Of a DNA stretch of 11,708 bases, positions 261 to 6,470 are shown in pieces (position 1 is the first letter of the stretch; every line of letters begins with the position of its first letter). The stretch lies in UHGV virus genome UHGV-0100572; one strand, given 5' to 3'. Under the pieces are notes generated by a model that had not been told where the DNA came from, ran no database searches, and worked only from the letters and a program-made list of their open reading frames with translations. Made by a program: the position numbers and the translations under genes. The DNA is from a virus.

Positions 261-2822
261 TTATATTTTCTTAATATTATTAATGCACCAACGGAGATAT
301 GCGCACTCTAATACAAGCGCCTCGTCATATCGTATCCCATAGCGATTACCAGCCTTATTTTTAAGTCGTAATTCTCCTGTTTCATATATCTTCTCTATTT
401 GTTCTCCAAATTCATTCACCTCAATTTTTGAGGAAAAAACAGGCTCATAGCTATCATCCCATTCATCGTAACAAAGAATTCCATATGCAAATGGGTCTAT
501 TCCTTCTGATTCAAAGGCTTCTTTTACTCTCTGAGCAATAACTCCGAAATGTATCCTTGCTTTGTCCCCTTTCTCTTTTACAGCATCGGTAAACTTATAC
601 TGCATAAAATTGACTTTACCCCATGCCTTTAAAATCTCCTCAGGAATCTCCTCTTTTTCTATTTTGGCGCGTTCATCAGATGTGTTAATGCTTCCTGTCG
701 AAGCATAAACTTGATTCCAACGTTTCTCAGGTATTCCACAGTTCCCGCCAGAATCATCTGTTGGATAAATATGTTTTCCTGATACTGCATTGCCATCGCT
801 TGTAACCATGAATTTTGTGTTTCCGGATATGCTCTGAACCTGAAAACTAGCATCAGTTTGCGCAAGAATAGATCCTGCAGGCGCTCTCTTAATTCTCGCA
901 TAATTAGGATTGTCAATTGAACCAAGAAGAATTTGTGATTCCTGTTGTGTTGATTCAGATAGTATTCGTAAATCTCCAAATGGCAATTTGGTATTGCTTC
1001 GAGAATCTGCAGAGTTAAACAACATTGTGTCGCCGTAGCGAAGTGTTGTGTATGTCAGAGCAAATGGAGCATGAGACTCGATAATCTCCATTAGCCTGTG
1101 ATTTGTAGTGGCACACAAACCAAAAAATGTATTACTTGTCTGATTAGATGTTATTGGCGTGCCATCTCTCATCCTTACCTTAAACGGGTTTTCTATCATG
1201 CACCCCAAAAATGTATCCCGTGCAGAACGGTCAATTCTCACGCAAAAAGGAGCATCGCTCTGGAATCTGGTTCCTATATAACGATGTCCGTGTATAGCTT
1301 TGCTTACATTTCCTCCCAACCCGTCAATATTAAAAGCTCCGCCTACATCCCAATCAGTTAATGGGTCAGGAGAAGTTTTCATATCAACAAGTCTGCGCTT
1401 GGTATGATGATTAGCCCCAAATATTTGACTATTTATGATAACAAAATCAGAAAATCCACCGGCTCCACGATCATCTGGAATAAGTTTATTTTCTACAGGA
1501 TCATAATAATTTTCATATCCTTCCGGAGCATATGAGTCATGCCCAGGAGCAGGAGAAGCACCAAAGACATTTACCCCCCATAAACCACCAGATGTAAACA
1601 CACGATCAAGAATGCAACCATCACTACCATCACCCCAAATACCTCGTGGATATGAATTACCAGTTCGATAGCTTTTAAATCTACCTGCACCAGAAGGTTG
1701 AGTAACATCGAACCAAATATTTGCTTTTCGATGGTATCCAATAACTGCAATATCAATAAGTTGAGTATTACAACGGCATCCATTAAAAATACCGACATCC
1801 CAATCAGCACCCAAGTTGTCAATGCTGTCTGTGTATTCACCATCAGGGCCACTTTCTGGCGGGTAAACTTTTGTTCTCACTGCAAAGTGCTCTAGCTGAA
1901 CGCCTTCTGCTTGAATATTAATATTTACCGAAATTGCCTCATCCTGAGCATCACCAGAACCTGAGCGATACTTCCGTCTGGTACGTATCCTTTTTGTGCC
2001 AGTACCAACAAACATTAATGTTGAGCAATCAACCCAATTAAATACTGGCCCGATATAATGAGGAACGATACTCCCATTTTCACTATATTGATTAAGTGCC
2101 TGATATCCATATCCCCTCCCGGAACCAATAATTCTTTGACCATGAGTTAGTAGTTCCAGTTCAAGATCACAAATAAATACTCCCTCCGTCAGATAAATAT
2201 GCTTTCCTGTATCAAGAGCAGCTTGTATTGCGAGGCCGTCAATAGATTGTTCCAGTGAAGTAGCAAATGGATAAACCACCCTGGCTAATGATAGAGAAGA
2301 AAATTTCTCTGATAGTTTATGTAATGTCCCGTCACCTATAGCACCGAAATCTCTGATACTTACAAAATCTAGGTTTTTTGAATGTTGACTTCGTTGTATT
2401 GCTCCAGCAAGTGGTTGCTTAATAAATACATTAGAGTCATCAACTAATTGACCAGAGTTTTCATGTTGAAGGAGATGTCGCAGTTGATCGGGGTCATACT
2501 TCAGCACATTCTGGAAATAGAACTGCTGTACGCCATACGCATCGTACACAGCCATAGAATGACCTTGCACAGTTACGAACTTGGCAATCTGTCCGTTATA
2601 TACCGGATATCCAGCAGCGTTAATGATGATTGGTTGCGAAACAGGAACGTGAGAACCGTCTTCGTTCTCCACATAAACCTGAATCTGGTTTTCAGGATTT
2701 ACAGGGTCAGTGTCAATTTTGCCGATATAAATTTTGCCATTGGCTACGGCTTTAAAAGAACGTGCCATAGTGAAGAGTTGCGAAGGCATCGATACGATCA
2801 CATTGGCTGTAATGTCTGTCAT
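261..2822 (-). CDS. Tailspike protein: P22 gp9-like N-terminal head-binding domain, beta-helix depolymerase-like receptor-binding domain, C-terminal peptidase-S74-type intramolecular chaperone domain
   Basis: 853-aa ORF with ATG at 2822-2820 and GGAG 8 nt upstream. Residues 1-113 (MTDITANV...KYDPDQ) closely match the P22 tailspike head-binding domain as I recall it. A DFGAIGDG motif typical of pectate-lyase-fold beta-helix depolymerases lies near residue 160. The C-terminus has a TSDERAK motif (S715/D716) like the auto-cleavage site of endosialidase-type chaperone domains. Confidence 0.9.
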
Positions 2823-2880: not shown

Positions 2881-2903
2881 AAAAAAACCCAGCCGAAGCT
2901 GGG
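2881..2903 (-). terminator. Rho-independent terminator downstream of ant
   Basis: On the minus strand: stem CCCAGC, loop UUCG, stem GCUGGG, followed directly by seven U (plus-strand A-run 2881-2887, stem-loop 2888-2903). It sits 20 nt after the ant stop. Confidence 0.65.
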
Positions 2904-2922
2904 TCGTTGCGTTGGTTATCTG

Positions 2923-3825
2923 TCAGTAGTTATGTACTGAAGGAGGTAATTCTTTATTCTTAAGTCTCATCCATGCGGAAAGATTCGTTGGTCCGTCTGG
3001 CTCATTAATATCAACATCTCGTGTATGGTTGATTAAAACATCTCTCGCCATTCCGATAACATACGAGAACTCATGACCGTAGTCGTAGCATCTGCCGGAA
3101 TAGTTCGATTGAATTTGTTTTAATGCCGGATACAGTTCGCGGAATAATGCCTGTGAGCGGTTGGCATAATCCCATAACCATACAAGGCTGTTTGCTTCTT
3201 TTGCAGAAAGCTCGTTTGCTTTCTTCTCTTGCTTGCCGATGAACTCACCTTCAAGCACTACCCTGTGGATGTACTCTACTGCTTGCGGTATCTGAGATGC
3301 ATCAAGCTCTTCAATACTTTCCACATTGAAACGCTGATGAATCATTGCATAAGCTTCTGGGTACATTAGATGCTTTTTGCTGACCAGCATATTTACAGCA
3401 TCACGAAGCGGAGTCCTGTCATCAACAGATGTTTTCTTACGTGCATTTTCTGCCTTTCCCTTCGTCCAGTAGTCATGCAGCACAGTAAAGCATTCTTCCT
3501 GGTACTGAATCAGTTTATCACGGATGTCAGCACGAACTTTCTCAGGGTTGATGCTGAACAGCCATCCATTTAACTTCTTCAAAGGAAGGCAGAGTAGCTT
3601 ACGAAGCTTACCATCAGCGGCAACCATGTTCATATGAACACAGTTGAATTTGCTAATCTGCTTCATGAGTTTTGTTTGCTGCGTTGACCAGCTCATTCCG
3701 AGGTTTTCAACGATTGGCTTCATCGCAACATATGCAACTCCGGCAGCCATGGCGGTGATAATTTGCTGACCGTTGAATGGCACGTAAGAGGTGTTCACTG
3801 CTTCTAAAATTGCTATACTATTCAT
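2923..3825 (-). CDS. ant: Antirepressor Ant (P22 immI antirepressor family)
   Basis: 300 aa from ATG 3825-3823 ([22 protein letters not shown]...), with GGAG 10 nt upstream. The N-terminus matches P22 Ant as I recall it. The ORF-track start at 3855 is a TTG adding 10 residues and is less likely. Gene order arc-ant-tailspike is as in P22. Confidence 0.85.
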
Positions 3826-3896
3826 GTTGGTTTTTCTCCAAGGATTTACCGACAACCGAAGCCCTAACTGTTACCGCAGTTGGGGCTTCAACTTTT
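3826..3896 (+). ncRNA. sar: Candidate sar-like antisense RNA covering the ant ribosome-binding site
   Basis: Extended -10-like TGcTATACT at 3811-3819 on the plus strand, inside the first ant codons. About 60-70 nt downstream is a hairpin (3858-3868 pairs with 3879-3889, one G-U pair) followed by aacuuuu. The predicted transcript is antisense to the ant GGAG and start codon. P22 encodes a 68-69 nt sar RNA at the equivalent place. Confidence 0.4.
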
Positions 3897-4112
3897 CACT
3901 TCTTTAAAGTGCCTACCTTCTACAGTTGCTCTGAGATAAAAATTCTTATCTTTACCGTTTAGTGCTTCCCAAGCATCAACAATGCACTTATTACAGATGT
4001 GGACTTCTCGATAACCAATAGCTTTCCTGTCAATATTAGTGAACATAACAGCTTCTTTATCTGTCAATGTGGATGCATGACAGAAGTCGCAATCTATATA
4101 AGATACCTTCAT
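3888..4112 (-). CDS. Small hypothetical protein with two CxxC pairs (zinc-ribbon-like), inserted between arc and ant
   Basis: 74-aa ORF. Its ATG (4112-4110) overlaps the arc stop as ATGA. A GAGGGG Shine-Dalgarno lies about 8 nt upstream. CDFC at residues 8-11 and CNKC at 40-43. I do not recall a gene at this position in P22. Confidence 0.5.
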   Translation of the reverse strand: MKVSYIDCDFCHASTLTDKEAVMFTNIDRKAIGYREVHICNKCIVDAWEALNGKDKNFYLRATVEGRHFKEVKS

Positions 4113-4267
4113 ACCGTTATCCCCTCTCTCTTCAGGCTGTCCATCACTCGCTTGTAAATCTCAGAGTTAACAGATCGCCCGTTCTCTTCCGCCACCTTAC
4201 GCACCAAATCCAATACTTCTTTAGGCCACCGCAAATTGAACTGCGGCATTTTGCTCATTCCTTTCAT
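4109..4267 (-). CDS. arc: Arc repressor (ribbon-helix-helix)
   Basis: ATG at 4267-4265 gives MKGMSKMPQFNLRWPKEVLDLVRKVAEENGRSVNSEIYKRVMDSLKREGITV (52 aa), near-identical to P22 Arc as recalled. GAGGTG Shine-Dalgarno upstream. The longer 73-aa ORF in the track begins at an ATG inside the Arc operator. Confidence 0.9.
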   Translation of the reverse strand: MKGMSKMPQFNLRWPKEVLDLVRKVAEENGRSVNSEIYKRVMDSLKREGITV

Positions 4268-4301: not shown

Positions 4302-4330
4302 TTGAGAATATAGTAGAGTGCTTCTATCAT
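4302..4330 (+). promoter_or_regulatory. Candidate Pmnt promoter, divergent from and overlapping Pant
   Basis: Plus strand ttgaga (4302-4307), 17-nt spacer, tatcat (4325-4330), 27 nt upstream of the mnt ATG. Hexamers are weaker than Pant; placement by analogy with P22. Confidence 0.35.
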
Positions 4331-4335
4331 GTCAA
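4307..4335 (-). promoter_or_regulatory. Pant promoter driving arc, the small CxxC ORF and ant
   Basis: Minus strand reads TTGACA (4335-4330), a 17-nt spacer, then TATATT (4312-4307). That is a consensus -35 with near-consensus -10 at ideal spacing. Confidence 0.7.
4310..4330. promoter_or_regulatory. Arc operator (Oarc)
   Basis: atagtagagtgcttctatcat is the reverse complement of the 21-bp P22 Arc operator ATGATAGAAGCACTCTACTAT as recalled. It sits between the -35 and -10 of Pant. Confidence 0.85.
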
Positions 4336-4357: not shown

Positions 4358-4612
4358 ATGGCTAGAGACGATCCGCACTTTAACTTCCGTATGCCTTTGG
4401 AAGTAAGAGAAAAATTGAAATTAAGAGCAGAGGCTAACGGAAGGTCAATGAACTCTGAGTTATTACAAATCGTTCAGGATGCTCTCTCAAAGCCATCATC
4501 AATTGTAGGCTATCGAGACGAAGCTGAGCGAGTCGCGGATGAGCAATCTGACGTTGTTAAGAAGATGGTCTTTGAAACGCTGAAAAATATTTATAGCAAA
4601 AGTAAGTTATAG
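4358..4612 (+). CDS. mnt: Mnt repressor (maintenance of lysogeny, represses Pant)
   Basis: 84 aa, MARDDPHFNFRMPLEVREKLKLRAEANGRSMNSELLQIVQDALSK..., near-identical to P22 Mnt as recalled. Divergent from arc with the two operators between. Confidence 0.9.
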   Translation: MARDDPHFNFRMPLEVREKLKLRAEANGRSMNSELLQIVQDALSKPSSIVGYRDEAERVADEQSDVVKKMVFETLKNIYSKSKL

Positions 4613-4661: not shown

Positions 4662-5381
4662 ATGAAAAAAAGCAATGGACTCACATTAAAACTTGACGGA
4701 ACCACCCCTGGCCAGCTGTCAATGGCTAAGTTGGTCAAGTATATGTCTGCTCTCGTAGATCTATACGGTTCTGCAGATTCTGTTCACTTCGACTGTGTAA
4801 GTGAAGGATCGGCTGACTTAAATGCATGGGTCGATAATGATATTTGTTATAACGCTGTCATAGCAAGGGCCTCTCTCTCAGCCAAAGAGAAATCACCCGC
4901 GTATCAAAAAATTGTTAATTTACTGGAACATGATGGTTTTTCAGCGAAACTACTCGGACGAAACCACTCAACCATTATCGCATTCCCGCGAGTAAAAAAG
5001 GAGCCAATCCCTTTACTCATAACAAAAACGTCAGAAGTTCAAGGAAGGCTATACAGTGTTGGCGGAAAAGACAACTCAATACCTGTGCGTATTGAGGGAG
5101 CCAACGGTGAAACATTCAAGTGCGAGGCAACCCCTGATTTGGCGGCAGCTCTTGGGTCCCATCTATTCAAATATATTAGGGTTAAAGGAGATGGGTGCTG
5201 GGAAAAAAAGAACAACAAATGGGAGCTAAAGAAACTAAAAATAACTTCATTTGTATTGCTCAAAAAATCATCACTCAAGGATGCTATTAATGCTATCAAG
5301 CAAGTTCCTGGAGATCAGTGGTCCGAGGAACGCGATGTTGATTCAATCCTTAGGACTCTGAGGAAGATAAATTGCGAGTAA
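4662..5381 (+). CDS. Hypothetical protein, 239 aa; upstream partner of the PIN-domain gene
   Basis: ATG-initiated ORF 49 bp after mnt. No recognisable motif (no Walker A, no hydrophobic segments). Its last 10 nt overlap the next ORF. AT-rich relative to the flanking late genes, by eye. Confidence 0.65.
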   Translation: MKKSNGLTLKLDGTTPGQLSMAKLVKYMSALVDLYGSADSVHFDCVSEGSADLNAWVDNDICYNAVIARASLSAKEKSPAYQKIVNLLEHDGFSAKLLGRNHSTIIAFPRVKKEPIPLLITKTSEVQGRLYSVGGKDNSIPVRIEGANGETFKCEATPDLAAALGSHLFKYIRVKGDGCWEKKNNKWELKKLKITSFVLLKKSSLKDAINAIKQVPGDQWSEERDVDSILRTLRKINCE

Positions 5382-5920
5382 TTTTAGATACCAATATTCT
5401 GGTATACCTACTATCAGATATAGAACACGATTATAGATTATCTGACCCTATACTTGGTTCTGAGATTCCAGATGCCAAAAGAAGAGCAGAAGCTCTTGTT
5501 GATCGAATAGATAACAAGAACGGGACAATCATCGTTCCAACTCCTGTATTGGCGGAGTTTTTAGTTGGAATCCATAAAGATTACCAACAAGAAAAACTGA
5601 ATGTTATCAAATCGTTATCGTGCTTCGAGACTGTATCATTTGATGAGTTGGCTGCTATTGAATGCGCATCGATACCAACATTAAAAGAATTAAGGAAAAT
5701 TAGCACAGAAGGTACAGCAAATAAAATTAAGTTTGACAGACAAATAATAGCAATTGCAAGAGCAATTAATGCTGACGAGGTATGGACTCATGATAAGGGA
5801 GTGTTTGAGCGTTGCAAAAGTCTCAATATTCCTGTGTTCACATTGTCATCAATAGAACCAATTCCGGTTCAAAGTCTCATGGAGTTCTTACACGATTCAG
5901 ACGATCAGAGATTACACTAA
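5372..5920 (+). CDS. PIN-domain protein (VapC-like putative ribonuclease), 182 aa
   Basis: N-terminus MRVILDTNILVYLL with the hallmark acidic residue at position 6. Further candidate acidic residues in VLAEFL and NADEVWTHDKG. TTG start at 5372 preceded by GAGGAAG with a 5-nt spacer. There is no in-frame ATG that would preserve the PIN N-terminus. Confidence 0.7.
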   Translation: MRVILDTNILVYLLSDIEHDYRLSDPILGSEIPDAKRRAEALVDRIDNKNGTIIVPTPVLAEFLVGIHKDYQQEKLNVIKSLSCFETVSFDELAAIECASIPTLKELRKISTEGTANKIKFDRQIIAIARAINADEVWTHDKGVFERCKSLNIPVFTLSSIEPIPVQSLMEFLHDSDDQRLH

Positions 5921-5984: not shown

Positions 5985-6470
5985 GTGGACAAACCTTTAT
6001 CTCACTCCAAACCATCTGGTATCCTGCGTAAAACTAAGGAGGTTGGTGTGTTTGGTATATTAACGAGAAGCAAGATAAAAAAATTAAGGGCAGAACTCGC
6101 CGAAACACAAAAACTGGCTTCACATTTTTACAAAATGAAATACGACGCTGAAGAGCGTGCATTTGTTGAGTTATGCGATTTATCTATTCGTATGGGAGTA
6201 GAGCCAGATGTAGCGGCAAAAACCCAACAAGGCATTGATATACTTGCAGATGTTGTTTTAAACAGGCAATATGCGTTTTATCTAAACGAGAAGGCCATTC
6301 AGATTTACTCTCAAATCTTCCTCCTAGAAAAAAGAAGAGGAACTCACGATCGAGAAGAGTGGTTAAATGAAGTTGTTAAAAAATCTGGCTGGGAAGTTGT
6401 TTCATCAGAGCTACCTCTTATTTGTGCTGATTTAATCGAAGAGGCAAAAGAGCGCCTATCCGATGGCTAA
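5985..6470 (+). CDS. Hypothetical protein, 140-161 aa depending on start
   Basis: ORF track starts at GTG 5985. An in-frame GTG at 6048 has a strong AAGGAGG Shine-Dalgarno 5 nt upstream and is the more likely start (6048-6470). No recognisable motif and no transmembrane segment. Stop at 6468-6470, 25 bp from the convergent gp16 stop. Confidence 0.6.
   Translation: MDKPLSHSKPSGILRKTKEVGVFGILTRSKIKKLRAELAETQKLASHFYKMKYDAEERAFVELCDLSIRMGVEPDVAAKTQQGIDILADVVLNRQYAFYLNEKAIQIYSQIFLLEKRRGTHDREEWLNEVVKKSGWEVVSSELPLICADLIEEAKERLSDG

What the first reader, a model, noticed from the sequence alone, without database searches (positions are those of the whole stretch)
3888..4112. Extra small CxxC protein inserted between arc and ant, translationally coupled to arc
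In P22, arc is followed by a short intercistronic region and then ant. Here a 74-aa ORF fills that space. Its ATG overlaps the arc stop (ATGA), it has a good Shine-Dalgarno, and it carries CDFC and CNKC pairs 29 residues apart, a zinc-ribbon-like arrangement. Because it sits in the Pant operon between repressor and antirepressor, it could be a further regulator of Ant or a host-directed moron product.
Basis: partly seen in the sequence, partly recalled or inferred. Interest (0 to 1): 0.55.

Follow-up and report, generated by a model that had tools for sequence, protein, structure and literature searches.

The report
Small zinc-finger gene between arc, ant
A real, conserved 74-codon gene sits in a swap-in slot between the arc repressor and ant antirepressor genes of a P22-like E. 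coli prophage; its small zinc-finger protein resembles the docking domain of the ClpX protease, and its function is untested.

Summary
ORF 3888-4112 (minus strand, 74 aa) starts at an ATG that overlaps the arc stop codon (ATGA). A GAGGGG Shine-Dalgarno lies 8 nt upstream, and two CxxC pairs are present. The ORF fills a segment that P22 and epsilon34 lack. It is a genuine gene: every relative found is 74-75 codons, dN/dS is 0.11-0.53, and all four Cys are invariant down to 42% identity. Every relative whose context could be read lies exactly between arc and the sar/ant leader.

The family is tiny: 15 clusters among 5.8 billion proteins, 23 of 5,426 complete E. coli genomes, and no sequenced phage. 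It is always annotated "hypothetical".

Two unrelated small ORFs (73 and 57 aa) occupy the same slot in other phages. The zinc-finger alleles do not co-vary with arc, mnt or ant alleles. I therefore read it as an accessory cassette expressed with Arc. It is possibly a free-standing ClpX-docking-domain mimic, and probably not a core Ant regulator. The mechanism is inferred, not shown.

The parts
3888..4112 (-). 74-aa ORF ('X'): a small C4 zinc-finger protein identical to the protein RefSeq annotates as 'hypothetical protein' (WP_000868958.1). Residues ~6-52 are ClpX-ZBD-like; a C-terminal ~22-aa extension carries invariant R67, F69 and K73.
   Evidence: ORF and annotation; intact frames, dN/dS 0.11-0.53; invariant C8 D9 F10 C11 S14 T15 N26 I39 C40 C43 R67 F69 K73; ClpX-ZBD likeness.
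4121..4126 (-). Shine-Dalgarno GAGGGG for X, 8 nt upstream of its ATG and embedded in the last arc codons (..K R E G I T V).
   Evidence: Sequence read directly. The motif is conserved in all slot-filled loci.
4109..4112 (-). ATGA overlap of the X start codon with the arc stop codon, the translational-coupling junction. It is GTGA in some Salmonella alleles.
3897..4120 (-). Segment absent from P22 and epsilon34. It replaces the last ~15 nt of P22 arc (net +212 bp). It is bounded by the conserved arc 3' end (..DSLKREG) and by AAAGTTGAAGCCCC.
   Evidence: two-piece matches and alignment A2.
4109..4267 (-). arc, 52 aa, the first gene of the Pant operon.
   Evidence: Pfam Arc E=1.8e-27.
3826..3893 (+). 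sar antisense RNA. Its 3' end overlaps the last codon and the stop codon of X by 6 nt. It is complementary to the X-ant intercistronic region and the ant ribosome-binding site.
   Evidence: Rfam RF00262, 95.5 bits (gathering score 43), full length 1-68.
2923..3825 (-). ant antirepressor, 300 aa.
   Evidence: P22_AR_N 2.9e-45, P22_AR_C 3.2e-29.
4307..4335 (-). Pant-like promoter (TTGACA, 17 nt spacer, TATATT; 11 of 12 matches). The scan found no other plausible promoter for arc-X-ant; its one other minus-strand match (4308-4279, 9 of 12) lies within the Pant/operator region, also upstream of arc.
   Evidence: The position matches the P22 and epsilon34 annotation.
4302..4330 (+). Pmnt-like promoter, overlapping and divergent from Pant.
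4358..4612 (+). mnt repressor, 84 aa.
   Evidence: Arc domain 5.7e-27 plus Repressor_Mnt 4.8e-13.
2886..2905 (-). Intrinsic terminator-like hairpin after ant. No terminator-like site lies between arc and ant.

Best explanation
X is a genuine accessory gene of the immI Pant operon.

Shown:
- It is under purifying selection.
- In every locus examined it sits between arc (4-nt start/stop overlap) and the sar/ant leader.
- It has no plausible promoter other than Pant and no terminator of its own.
- Its protein has four invariant Cys. Its first ~50 residues are most similar, by sequence profile and by predicted fold, to the N-terminal zinc-binding domain (ZBD) of ClpX.

Inferred from known P22 regulation: X is made whenever Arc is made. 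That means it is off in the lysogen (Mnt represses Pant), made in a burst right after infection until Arc shuts Pant down, and made again from late-operon read-through, while sar keeps ant translation low.

Proposed mechanism (inference): X binds one Zn through C8/C11/C40/C43 and acts as a free-standing mimic of the ClpX docking domain. It uses a hydrophobic patch that includes invariant F10, the equivalent of ClpX F16. With that patch it could bind peptides that normally dock on the ClpX N-domain (adaptor tails or N-domain-dependent substrates), or it could pair with the ClpX N-domain itself. Either way it would change which proteins ClpXP degrades in the freshly infected cell. The result would be to protect a phage protein or to blunt a proteolysis-triggered host or prophage defence. 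On this reading it is a swap-in cassette, not a core part of ant control.

My graded confidence:
- real gene: 0.95
- Zn-binding C4 finger: 0.85
- homologue of the ClpX ZBD: 0.7
- accessory cassette, not a dedicated Ant regulator: 0.65
- acts on ClpXP-linked proteolysis: about 0.3
For: Real gene:
- All homologues are intact 74-75-codon frames.
- dN/dS is 0.11-0.53.
- The exact protein is seen on at least 1000 contigs.

Fixed position:
- Every homologue whose context could be read, down to 42% identity, lies between arc and ant with the 4-nt overlap.

Operon membership:
- Pant is the only plausible promoter and there is no internal terminator.
- sar is intact at 3826-3893.

ClpX-ZBD likeness:
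- PF06689 is the best hit for 13 of 14 family members scanned and second for one (E 0.0008-0.04). The alignment spans both CxxC pairs in P0009, P0010 and P0014.
- hhalign of the family profile against E. coli ClpX 1-60 gives 93.7% probability and score 37.8.
- 300 shuffles of the ZBD that keep its four Cys score a mean of 12.9 (sd 3.1, max 27.5), and none reaches 37.8. Mu Com, YacG and DksA controls score 10-16.
- The AlphaFold model from the 11-sequence alignment has pLDDT 76.5 and pTM 0.61. It shows a knuckle, a beta-hairpin, and a helix starting at the second CxxC.
- A 63-aa viral protein named as a ClpX subunit ranks second in BFVD.

What the ZBD does in ClpX:
- It is the docking site for SspB, RssB and trigger factor, and it is required for lambda O degradation. 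The binding surface includes F16 and I46 (PMC7804408).
- F16 aligns with invariant F10 of X.

Cassette nature:
- Unrelated 73-aa and 57-aa ORFs fill the same slot with the same junctions. They occur in isolated phages Emek, vB_EcoP-611R6 and phiv205-1.
- X does not co-vary with arc, mnt or ant.
Against: - No experiment bears on expression, Zn binding or any partner.
- Each Pfam hit is below the gathering score (14-19 bits against 27).
- The family profile against PDB sequences puts ClpX at only E=0.16, among spurious T-cell-receptor hits.
- X has a 10-residue insertion between the Cys pairs relative to ClpX, and ClpX I46 aligns with Ala. The docking surface may therefore differ.
- Strict confinement of the whole family to the arc-ant slot, across 42-100% identity, would also fit a function tied to immI.
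- The covariation test is weak: 10 loci in mosaic genomes.
- Nothing links these prophages to a known N-domain-dependent ClpXP substrate. The one prophage examined has a toprim-type replication module and no gene annotated as a lambda O-type replication protein.
Confidence: 0.35

Rival explanations
1. Generic accessory cassette. X is an infection-time accessory protein (anti-defence, inter-phage competition or host takeover). Its zinc finger binds some other host or prophage protein. The ClpX-ZBD resemblance reflects only shared ancestry or shape of a small treble-clef finger, with no functional link to ClpXP.
Against: The similarity to the ClpX ZBD goes beyond the Cys pattern (0 of 300 Cys-preserving shuffles). 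It includes the F16-equivalent residue of the docking patch. There is no match to any PADLOC, PHROG or NCBIfam family that would suggest another target.
Confidence: 0.3
2. Fourth layer of ant control. X modulates antirepressor output, either by binding Ant or Arc protein, or by binding the structured ant leader / sar duplex to tune ant translation. The RNA-level version would resemble phage Mu Com, a small zinc-finger protein that activates translation of the gene downstream of it.
For: Every family member with readable context is confined to the arc-ant junction. X stops 6 nt downstream of the position of the P22 arc stop, at the foot of the sar-target hairpin, so the junction geometry is preserved. 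It is translationally coupled to Arc. It is a small Zn protein directly upstream of a translationally regulated gene.
Against: P22 and epsilon34 regulate an almost identical leader without X. Unrelated Cys-free ORFs replace X next to the same leader. X alleles do not track Ant N- or C-domain types or arc types. The protein is near neutral in charge (12 K/R against 11 D/E, counted from the sequence), which is not typical of an RNA or DNA binder.
Confidence: 0.2
3. Non-functional filler. The ORF is kept open only because the DNA serves as a spacer or recombination linker, or it is a gene-prediction artefact.
For: No functional data exist. The family is tiny, and some pipelines call only a 52-aa version. 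One frameshifted variant exists (P0007, a single contig).
Against: dN/dS is well below 1 at dS up to 0.87. Thirteen residues, including all four Cys, are invariant at 42% overall identity. Length is constant at 74-75 codons. The start/stop overlap and Shine-Dalgarno are conserved in all loci. The '52-aa' calls have an intact upstream frame with an ATG or GTG start.
Confidence: 0.03

Closest known systems
ClpX N-terminal zinc-binding domain (ZBD; Pfam PF06689 zf-C4_ClpX; PDB 1OVX, 2DS5-2DS8)
   Different: X is stand-alone (74 aa), with no AAA+ module. It has 28 residues between the Cys pairs instead of 18, and an extra C-terminal ~22-aa beta segment with invariant R67, F69 and K73. It scores below the Pfam gathering score. 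ClpX I46 corresponds to Ala. X is encoded by a prophage immunity operon.
Canonical P22 / epsilon34 immI operon (mnt; Pant-arc-ant; sar)
   Same: All canonical parts are present and about 92-95% identical in DNA: arc, ant, mnt, the overlapping Pant/Pmnt promoters, and sar RNA.
   Different: An extra gene lies between arc and the sar terminator. The arc C-terminus is rewritten (KREGITV) so that it carries the Shine-Dalgarno and the overlapping start for that gene.
Other occupants of the arc-ant slot: the 73-aa ORF (WP_001210981 / WP_128480504; phages Emek and vB_EcoP-611R6) and the 57-aa ORF (WP_000620145; phage phiv205-1)
   Same: Identical junctions: the start overlaps the arc stop (ATGA or GTGA), and the end is at TGAAGCCCC. 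They are similar in size and are also annotated as hypothetical.
   Different: They have no sequence similarity to X and no Cys pairs. They are more common (51 and 93 of 5,426 E. coli genomes against 23) and are present in isolated phages, whereas X is not.
Phage Mu Com (small zinc-finger translational activator of the downstream mom gene)
   Same: A small C4 zinc protein encoded immediately upstream of, and co-transcribed with, a gene whose translation is controlled by RNA structure (from established knowledge).
   Different: No detectable similarity (hhalign 0.3%) and no zf-Com Pfam hit. The ant leader works without X in P22.
Phage-encoded modulators of host AAA+ proteases (T4 PinA and T7 gp4.5 against Lon; lambda CIII against FtsH; SPO1 Gp53 on ClpC). 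These are recalled from the literature and were not retrieved here.
   Same: Small early phage proteins that change host proteolysis. This is the functional class proposed for X.
   Different: None is a ClpX-ZBD mimic, none is related in sequence, and the assignment of X to this class is inference only.

Membership tests
ClpX-type C4 zinc finger (PF06689 zf-C4_ClpX) | Four Zn-ligand Cys arranged as CxxC ... CxxC | tested here: met
   C8, C11, C40 and C43 are invariant in all 11 aligned members, down to 42% identity, and in all DNA-level alleles.
ClpX-type C4 zinc finger (PF06689 zf-C4_ClpX) | Score at or above the Pfam gathering threshold (27 bits) | tested here: not met
   Scores are 14.4-18.9 bits (E 0.0008-0.036). 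It is the best hit for 13 of 14 members scanned and second for P0014.
ClpX-type C4 zinc finger (PF06689 zf-C4_ClpX) | Sequence similarity beyond the Cys pattern | tested here: met
   hhalign of the family profile against E. coli ClpX 1-60 gives 93.7% probability and score 37.8, with 35% identity over 31 columns. None of 300 Cys-preserving shuffles reaches that score (max 27.5). Other C4 proteins score 10-16. The hhalign E-value is pairwise and is not corrected for a database search.
ClpX-type C4 zinc finger (PF06689 zf-C4_ClpX) | Treble-clef fold superposable on the solved ZBD | tested here: inconclusive
ClpX-type C4 zinc finger (PF06689 zf-C4_ClpX) | About 18 residues between the two CxxC pairs | tested here: not met
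   X has 28 residues between the pairs (25-28 across the family). hhalign places a 10-residue insertion after the first knuckle.
ClpX-type C4 zinc finger (PF06689 zf-C4_ClpX) | N-terminal fusion to a ClpX AAA+ ATPase | tested here: not met
   X is a stand-alone 74-aa protein in every locus.
ClpX-type C4 zinc finger (PF06689 zf-C4_ClpX) | Hydrophobic docking patch (F16, I46) that binds adaptors and substrates | tested here: inconclusive
   ClpX F16 corresponds to invariant F10 of X. ClpX I46 corresponds to the nearly invariant A50, and ClpX I47 to L/M51 (patch defined in PMC7804408).
ClpX-type C4 zinc finger (PF06689 zf-C4_ClpX) | Zn binding and constitutive dimerisation | not testable with these tools
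   This needs metal analysis and SEC-MALS or NMR on purified protein.
P22-type immI region | mnt, arc and ant genes with divergent overlapping Pant/Pmnt promoters | tested here: met
   Pfam Arc, Repressor_Mnt, P22_AR_N and P22_AR_C hits. Promoter pair at 4302-4335. About 92-95% DNA identity to P22 and epsilon34 outside the insert.
P22-type immI region | sar antisense RNA across the ant ribosome-binding site | tested here: met
   Rfam RF00262, 95.5 bits, 3826-3893 (+), full length.
Moron (as defined in Hendrix et al. 2000 and used for the 'ant moron', PMC2629481) | Present in some and absent from other closely related phages at the same position | tested here: met
   Absent from P22, epsilon34 and all 53 matching phage records. 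Present in 23 E. coli genomes. Alternative ORFs occupy the slot in others.
Moron (as defined in Hendrix et al. 2000 and used for the 'ant moron', PMC2629481) | Own promoter and terminator, giving independent expression (typically from the prophage) | tested here: not met
   There is no plausible promoter for it inside the insert: the only site the scan flags there is a weak plus-strand match (4077-4104, 9 of 12), which cannot drive a minus-strand gene. There is no terminator-like site, and the start overlaps the arc stop. This was a consensus scan only.
Mu Com-type zinc-finger translational activator | Sequence membership (Pfam zf-Com) or profile similarity | tested here: not met
   No such Pfam hit.

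The most novel reading that the evidence does not exclude
X is a natural, phage-encoded, free-standing decoy of the ClpX N-terminal docking domain. It is made in the first minutes of infection from Pant. It sequesters adaptor tails or N-domain-dependent degrons, or caps the ClpX N-domains. This reprograms ClpXP proteolysis to favour the incoming phage, for example by stabilising a phage protein or by preventing protease-triggered activation of a toxin-antitoxin or abortive-infection defence. It would be the first described viral mimic of an AAA+ unfoldase substrate-recognition domain. The arc-ant junction would then be a dedicated slot for interchangeable immediate-early counter-defence genes.
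Probability: 0.25. Interest if true: 0.75.

Novelty: new variant of a known kind. Interest (0 to 1): 0.45.

Why it matters
The P22 immI region is a textbook regulatory circuit (Mnt, Arc, sar, Ant). This analysis shows three things about it.

- In many enterobacterial prophages the arc-ant junction is a precise cassette slot. At least three unrelated small genes occupy it, each translationally coupled to Arc and ending at the foot of the sar hairpin.
- One occupant is a previously unclassified stand-alone relative of the ClpX substrate- and adaptor-docking zinc finger.
- If that protein acts on ClpXP, it gives a directly testable example of a phage mimicking a protease recognition domain. The slot would then be a place to mine for immediate-early phage effectors.

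There is also a practical point for annotation. Several pipelines truncate the gene to 52 aa and so lose the first CxxC pair.

If instead it proves to be an ordinary accessory protein of unknown target, the finding remains a modest annotation improvement.

Tried and rejected
- Pfam, PHROGs, NCBIfam and PADLOC scans gave no family at curated or significant level for X. The only lead was the sub-threshold ClpX finger.
- tblastn and blastn against 50,697 phage records and 72,556 plasmids gave no match.
- The GTDB species-representative scan gave no locus.
- The first AlphaFold run used 7 near-identical sequences and failed (pLDDT 40), so it was not used.
- Foldseek against PDB and BFVD gave nothing significant. 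The afdb_sample library was unavailable.
- The family profile against PDB sequences gave top hits to T-cell-receptor alpha constant domains, which I judged spurious because they lack the Cys ligands. ClpX scored only E=0.16. An endothelin hit from the shallower profile was also dismissed.
- The idea that the Salmonella '52-aa' proteins are N-terminally truncated alleles lacking the first CxxC was rejected. The upstream 22 codons are intact, with an ATG or GTG start.
- A classical zinc ribbon or Mu Com-like protein was rejected on fold and profile grounds.
- I tested for covariation of X with Arc, Mnt and Ant (whole protein, N-domain and C-domain) and found none.
- Literature searches for a described gene between arc and ant, for phage ClpX-ZBD mimics, and for ClpXP control of antirepressors found nothing relevant.
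- A link to the ClpP-like gene seen after mnt in some prophages was considered. Those loci (L026, L027) carry the other cassettes, not X.

Full report
**1. What is in the sequence**

The window is the late-operon end of a P22-like prophage. It carries, in order:
- ejection-protein genes (P22_gp7, Inj_translocase, DUF2824);
- the immI region, also called the "ant moron";
- an 853-aa tailspike with a P22 head-binding domain.

On the minus strand, a Pant-like promoter (4335-4307) is followed by arc (4267-4109, 52 aa), the ORF in question (4112-3888, 74 aa) and ant (3825-2923). A terminator-like hairpin lies at 2905-2886. mnt is divergent on the plus strand (4358-4612).

Rfam finds a full-length sar antisense RNA at 3826-3893 (+), scoring 95.5 bits against a gathering score of 43.

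The ORF's ATG overlaps the arc TGA (ATGA). A GAGGGG Shine-Dalgarno lies 8 nt upstream, inside arc. The protein has C8xxC11 and C40xxC43.

**2. It is an insertion relative to P22, and the slot is a cassette site**

All 53 phage records that match the region, including P22 and epsilon34, align in two pieces around the ORF. In a four-way alignment, homology to P22 and epsilon34 stops in the last arc codons (after ..GAAGGG / GAGGGG). It resumes at AAAGTTGAAGCCCC, at the foot of the sar terminator hairpin. The X stop codon lies 6 nt downstream of the position of the P22 arc stop. An upstream reading frame therefore still terminates at the foot of the sar-target hairpin.

In complete E. coli genomes the same immI backbone occurs in several forms:
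- with no insert, as in P22;
- with X;
- with an unrelated 73-aa ORF (MRFIEVDEIG...; strains KE40, UMNK88, GN05476);
- with an unrelated 57-aa ORF (strain APEC O1).

Each of these ORFs starts on the arc stop (ATGA or GTGA) and ends at TGAAGCCCC. Among 5,426 complete E. coli genomes, X occurs in 23, the 73-aa ORF in 51 and the 57-aa ORF in 93.

The two alternative ORFs also occur in isolated phages: Emek and vB_EcoP-611R6 for the 73-aa ORF, and phiv205-1 for the 57-aa ORF. X occurs in none of 50,697 phage records.

Arc proteins next to X belong to at least four sequence types. Their C-termini nearly all follow the pattern ..DSLKREG(I/V/L)xV, with a different last residue in three loci. The arcs beside the other two cassettes end the same way. 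The conserved arc 3' end and the sar hairpin thus look like the homology arms for cassette exchange. That last point is inference.

The epsilon34 genome paper already describes this whole region as a high-flux "ant moron". Its text does not mention a gene between arc and ant (PMC2629481).

**3. It is a real gene**

A search of 5.8 billion proteins found 7 clusters. A profile search found 15. An exhaustive HMMER search of 1.84 billion representatives found 5 clusters at the 50% identity level. All are from Escherichia, Salmonella, Citrobacter or unnamed enterobacterial assemblies.

All full-length members are 74-75 aa. The "52-aa" Salmonella and Citrobacter entries are gene-calling truncations: the 22 upstream codons are intact and start with ATG or GTG on the arc stop.

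Pairwise dN/dS is 0.11-0.53, with dS up to 0.87. Thirteen residues are invariant at 42% overall identity: C8 D9 F10 C11 S14 T15 N26 I39 C40 C43 R67 F69 K73.

Every homologue whose context could be read, about 30 loci including 8 IMG/VR contigs, lies between arc and ant. The exact window protein is seen on at least 1000 contigs and is always named "hypothetical". One frameshifted variant was seen on a single contig (P0007).

**4. What the protein resembles**

No library gives a curated-level hit. PF06689 (the ClpX C4 zinc finger) is the best hit for 13 of the 14 family members scanned and second for the other, including the divergent ones. For three members the alignment spans both Cys pairs.

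hhalign of the family profile against E. coli ClpX residues 1-60 gives 93.7% probability. The ClpX sequence was checked against PDB entries 1OVX and 2DS5. The alignment pairs IDCDFCHAST..DRKAIGYREVHICNKCIVD with LYCSFCGKSQHE..VRKLIAGPSVYICDECVDL, with a 10-residue insertion in X.

As a control, I shuffled the ZBD 300 times while keeping its four Cys in place. The shuffles scored a mean of 12.9 ± 3.1 (max 27.5) against 37.8 for the real sequence. Mu Com, YacG and the DksA finger scored 10-16.

Caveats:
- the Pfam scores are below threshold;
- profile-against-PDB HMMER gives ClpX only E=0.16, among spurious hits;
- Foldseek finds nothing;

I rate homology to the ClpX ZBD at about 0.7.

**5. How it most likely works**

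*Shown.* The gene belongs to the Pant transcription unit. The promoter scan found no plausible promoter for it other than Pant: the only other minus-strand match (4308-4279, 9 of 12) lies within the Pant/operator region, also upstream of arc, and the only match inside the insert is a weak plus-strand one (4077-4104). There is no terminator between arc and ant. The gene is positioned for coupling to arc translation.

*Inferred from established P22 biology (summarised in PMC2629481).* X should be silent in lysogens because Mnt represses Pant. It should be made in a burst at infection until Arc represses Pant. It should be made again from late read-through toward the tailspike gene, while sar blocks ant translation.

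*What the ZBD does in ClpX.* The ZBD is the docking site for the adaptors SspB and RssB and for trigger factor. It is required for degradation of lambda O. It uses a hydrophobic surface that includes F16 and I46 (PMC7804408). ClpX F16 aligns with invariant F10 of X, and I46 aligns with A50.

*Proposed (confidence about 0.3).* X acts as a free docking-domain mimic that diverts or blocks N-domain-dependent ClpXP recognition early in infection.

**6. Rivals**

- A generic accessory or counter-defence protein whose finger binds something else (0.3).
- A fourth layer of Ant control, at the protein level or, like Mu Com, at the RNA level (0.2). Against this: P22 runs the same leader without X, Cys-free ORFs can replace X, and X does not co-vary with arc, mnt or ant (Spearman 0.02-0.12 over 10 loci; a weak test). 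For this: the family is strictly confined to this slot.
- Non-functional filler (0.03). The selection data argue against it.

**7. Novelty and verdict**

The gene is already in databases as an uncharacterised hypothetical protein. Small hypothetical ORFs next to arc are annotated in a few phage genomes. I found no description of the slot, of this family, or of its ClpX-ZBD likeness.

I class it as a new variant of a known kind: a stand-alone, insertion-bearing ClpX-type zinc finger embedded in the immI operon. Interest is moderate (0.45). It would rise to about 0.75 if the ClpX-decoy reading is confirmed.

Noticed in passing
window 4662-5381 (+) and 5372-5920 (+): Two overlapping genes (10-nt overlap) lie directly after mnt, where P22 has sieA. 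One is a 239-aa protein of unknown function (PHROG 19868 only). The other is a 182-aa PIN-domain protein (Pfam PIN 4e-10, weak VapC similarity). This looks like a toxin-antitoxin or defence-like module, but neither gene matches PADLOC.
   Followed up: partly
L002 3188-3409, L025 1689-1910, L026 1786-2007 (73-aa ORF); L027 2189-2362 (57-aa ORF): Two further unrelated small ORFs occupy the arc-ant slot with identical junctions. They occur in 51 and 93 of 5,426 E. coli genomes and in phages Emek, vB_EcoP-611R6 and phiv205-1. Neither has a significant family match; the 73-aa ORF has only a weak Pfam FlbD hit (E 0.025).
   Followed up: partly
L026 2507-3043; L027 2874-3410: Some related prophages carry a gene annotated 'ATP-dependent Clp protease proteolytic subunit' (WP_000903306.1) immediately after mnt. 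This is intriguing given the ClpX-like finger, but these loci carry the other slot cassettes, not X.
   Followed up: no
L010-L012 and L016-L018 (gene called at 6001-6159 or 4001-4159); proteins P0005, P0006, P0013, P0018, P0025, P0028: Annotation pipelines often call the gene as 52 aa from internal Met23, which drops the first CxxC pair. The full 74-codon frame, with an ATG or GTG on the arc stop, is intact in the six loci whose DNA was checked (L010-L012, L016-L018).
   Followed up: yes
window 4109-4135 (-); the same position in L006-L035: Arc proteins of at least four different sequence types nearly all end in ..DSLKREG(I/V/L)xV when a slot ORF follows (three loci differ in the last residue), whereas P22 and epsilon34 Arc end in ..KKEGRIGA. 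The conserved 3' end carries the Shine-Dalgarno and start of the downstream ORF. It probably serves as a recombination arm.
   Followed up: partly
window 261-2822 (-): The tailspike is 853 aa. It has a P22 head-binding domain (1-113) and a Peptidase_S74 intramolecular-chaperone domain (715-774). It differs from the 693-aa tailspike in the otherwise 99.9% identical immI locus of strain Ecol_AZ146, so the receptor-binding module has been swapped.
   Followed up: no
window 5985-6470 (+): A 161-aa ORF (RefSeq aa) between the PIN gene and the gene-16-like ejection gene. It has no match in Pfam, NCBIfam or PADLOC.
   Followed up: no
P0007 (one 6,640-bp Logan contig): A single frameshifted variant of X: 50 aa, diverging after residue ~28. 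It is either a pseudogene or an assembly error. It is the only disrupted copy seen.
   Followed up: no
L001 11452-12621 / L036 1-635: In strain Ecol_AZ146 the same prophage is interrupted by an ISEc52 (IS3-family) element in the ejection-gene region. The window lacks this insertion, so it comes from a different, uninterrupted copy.
   Followed up: no
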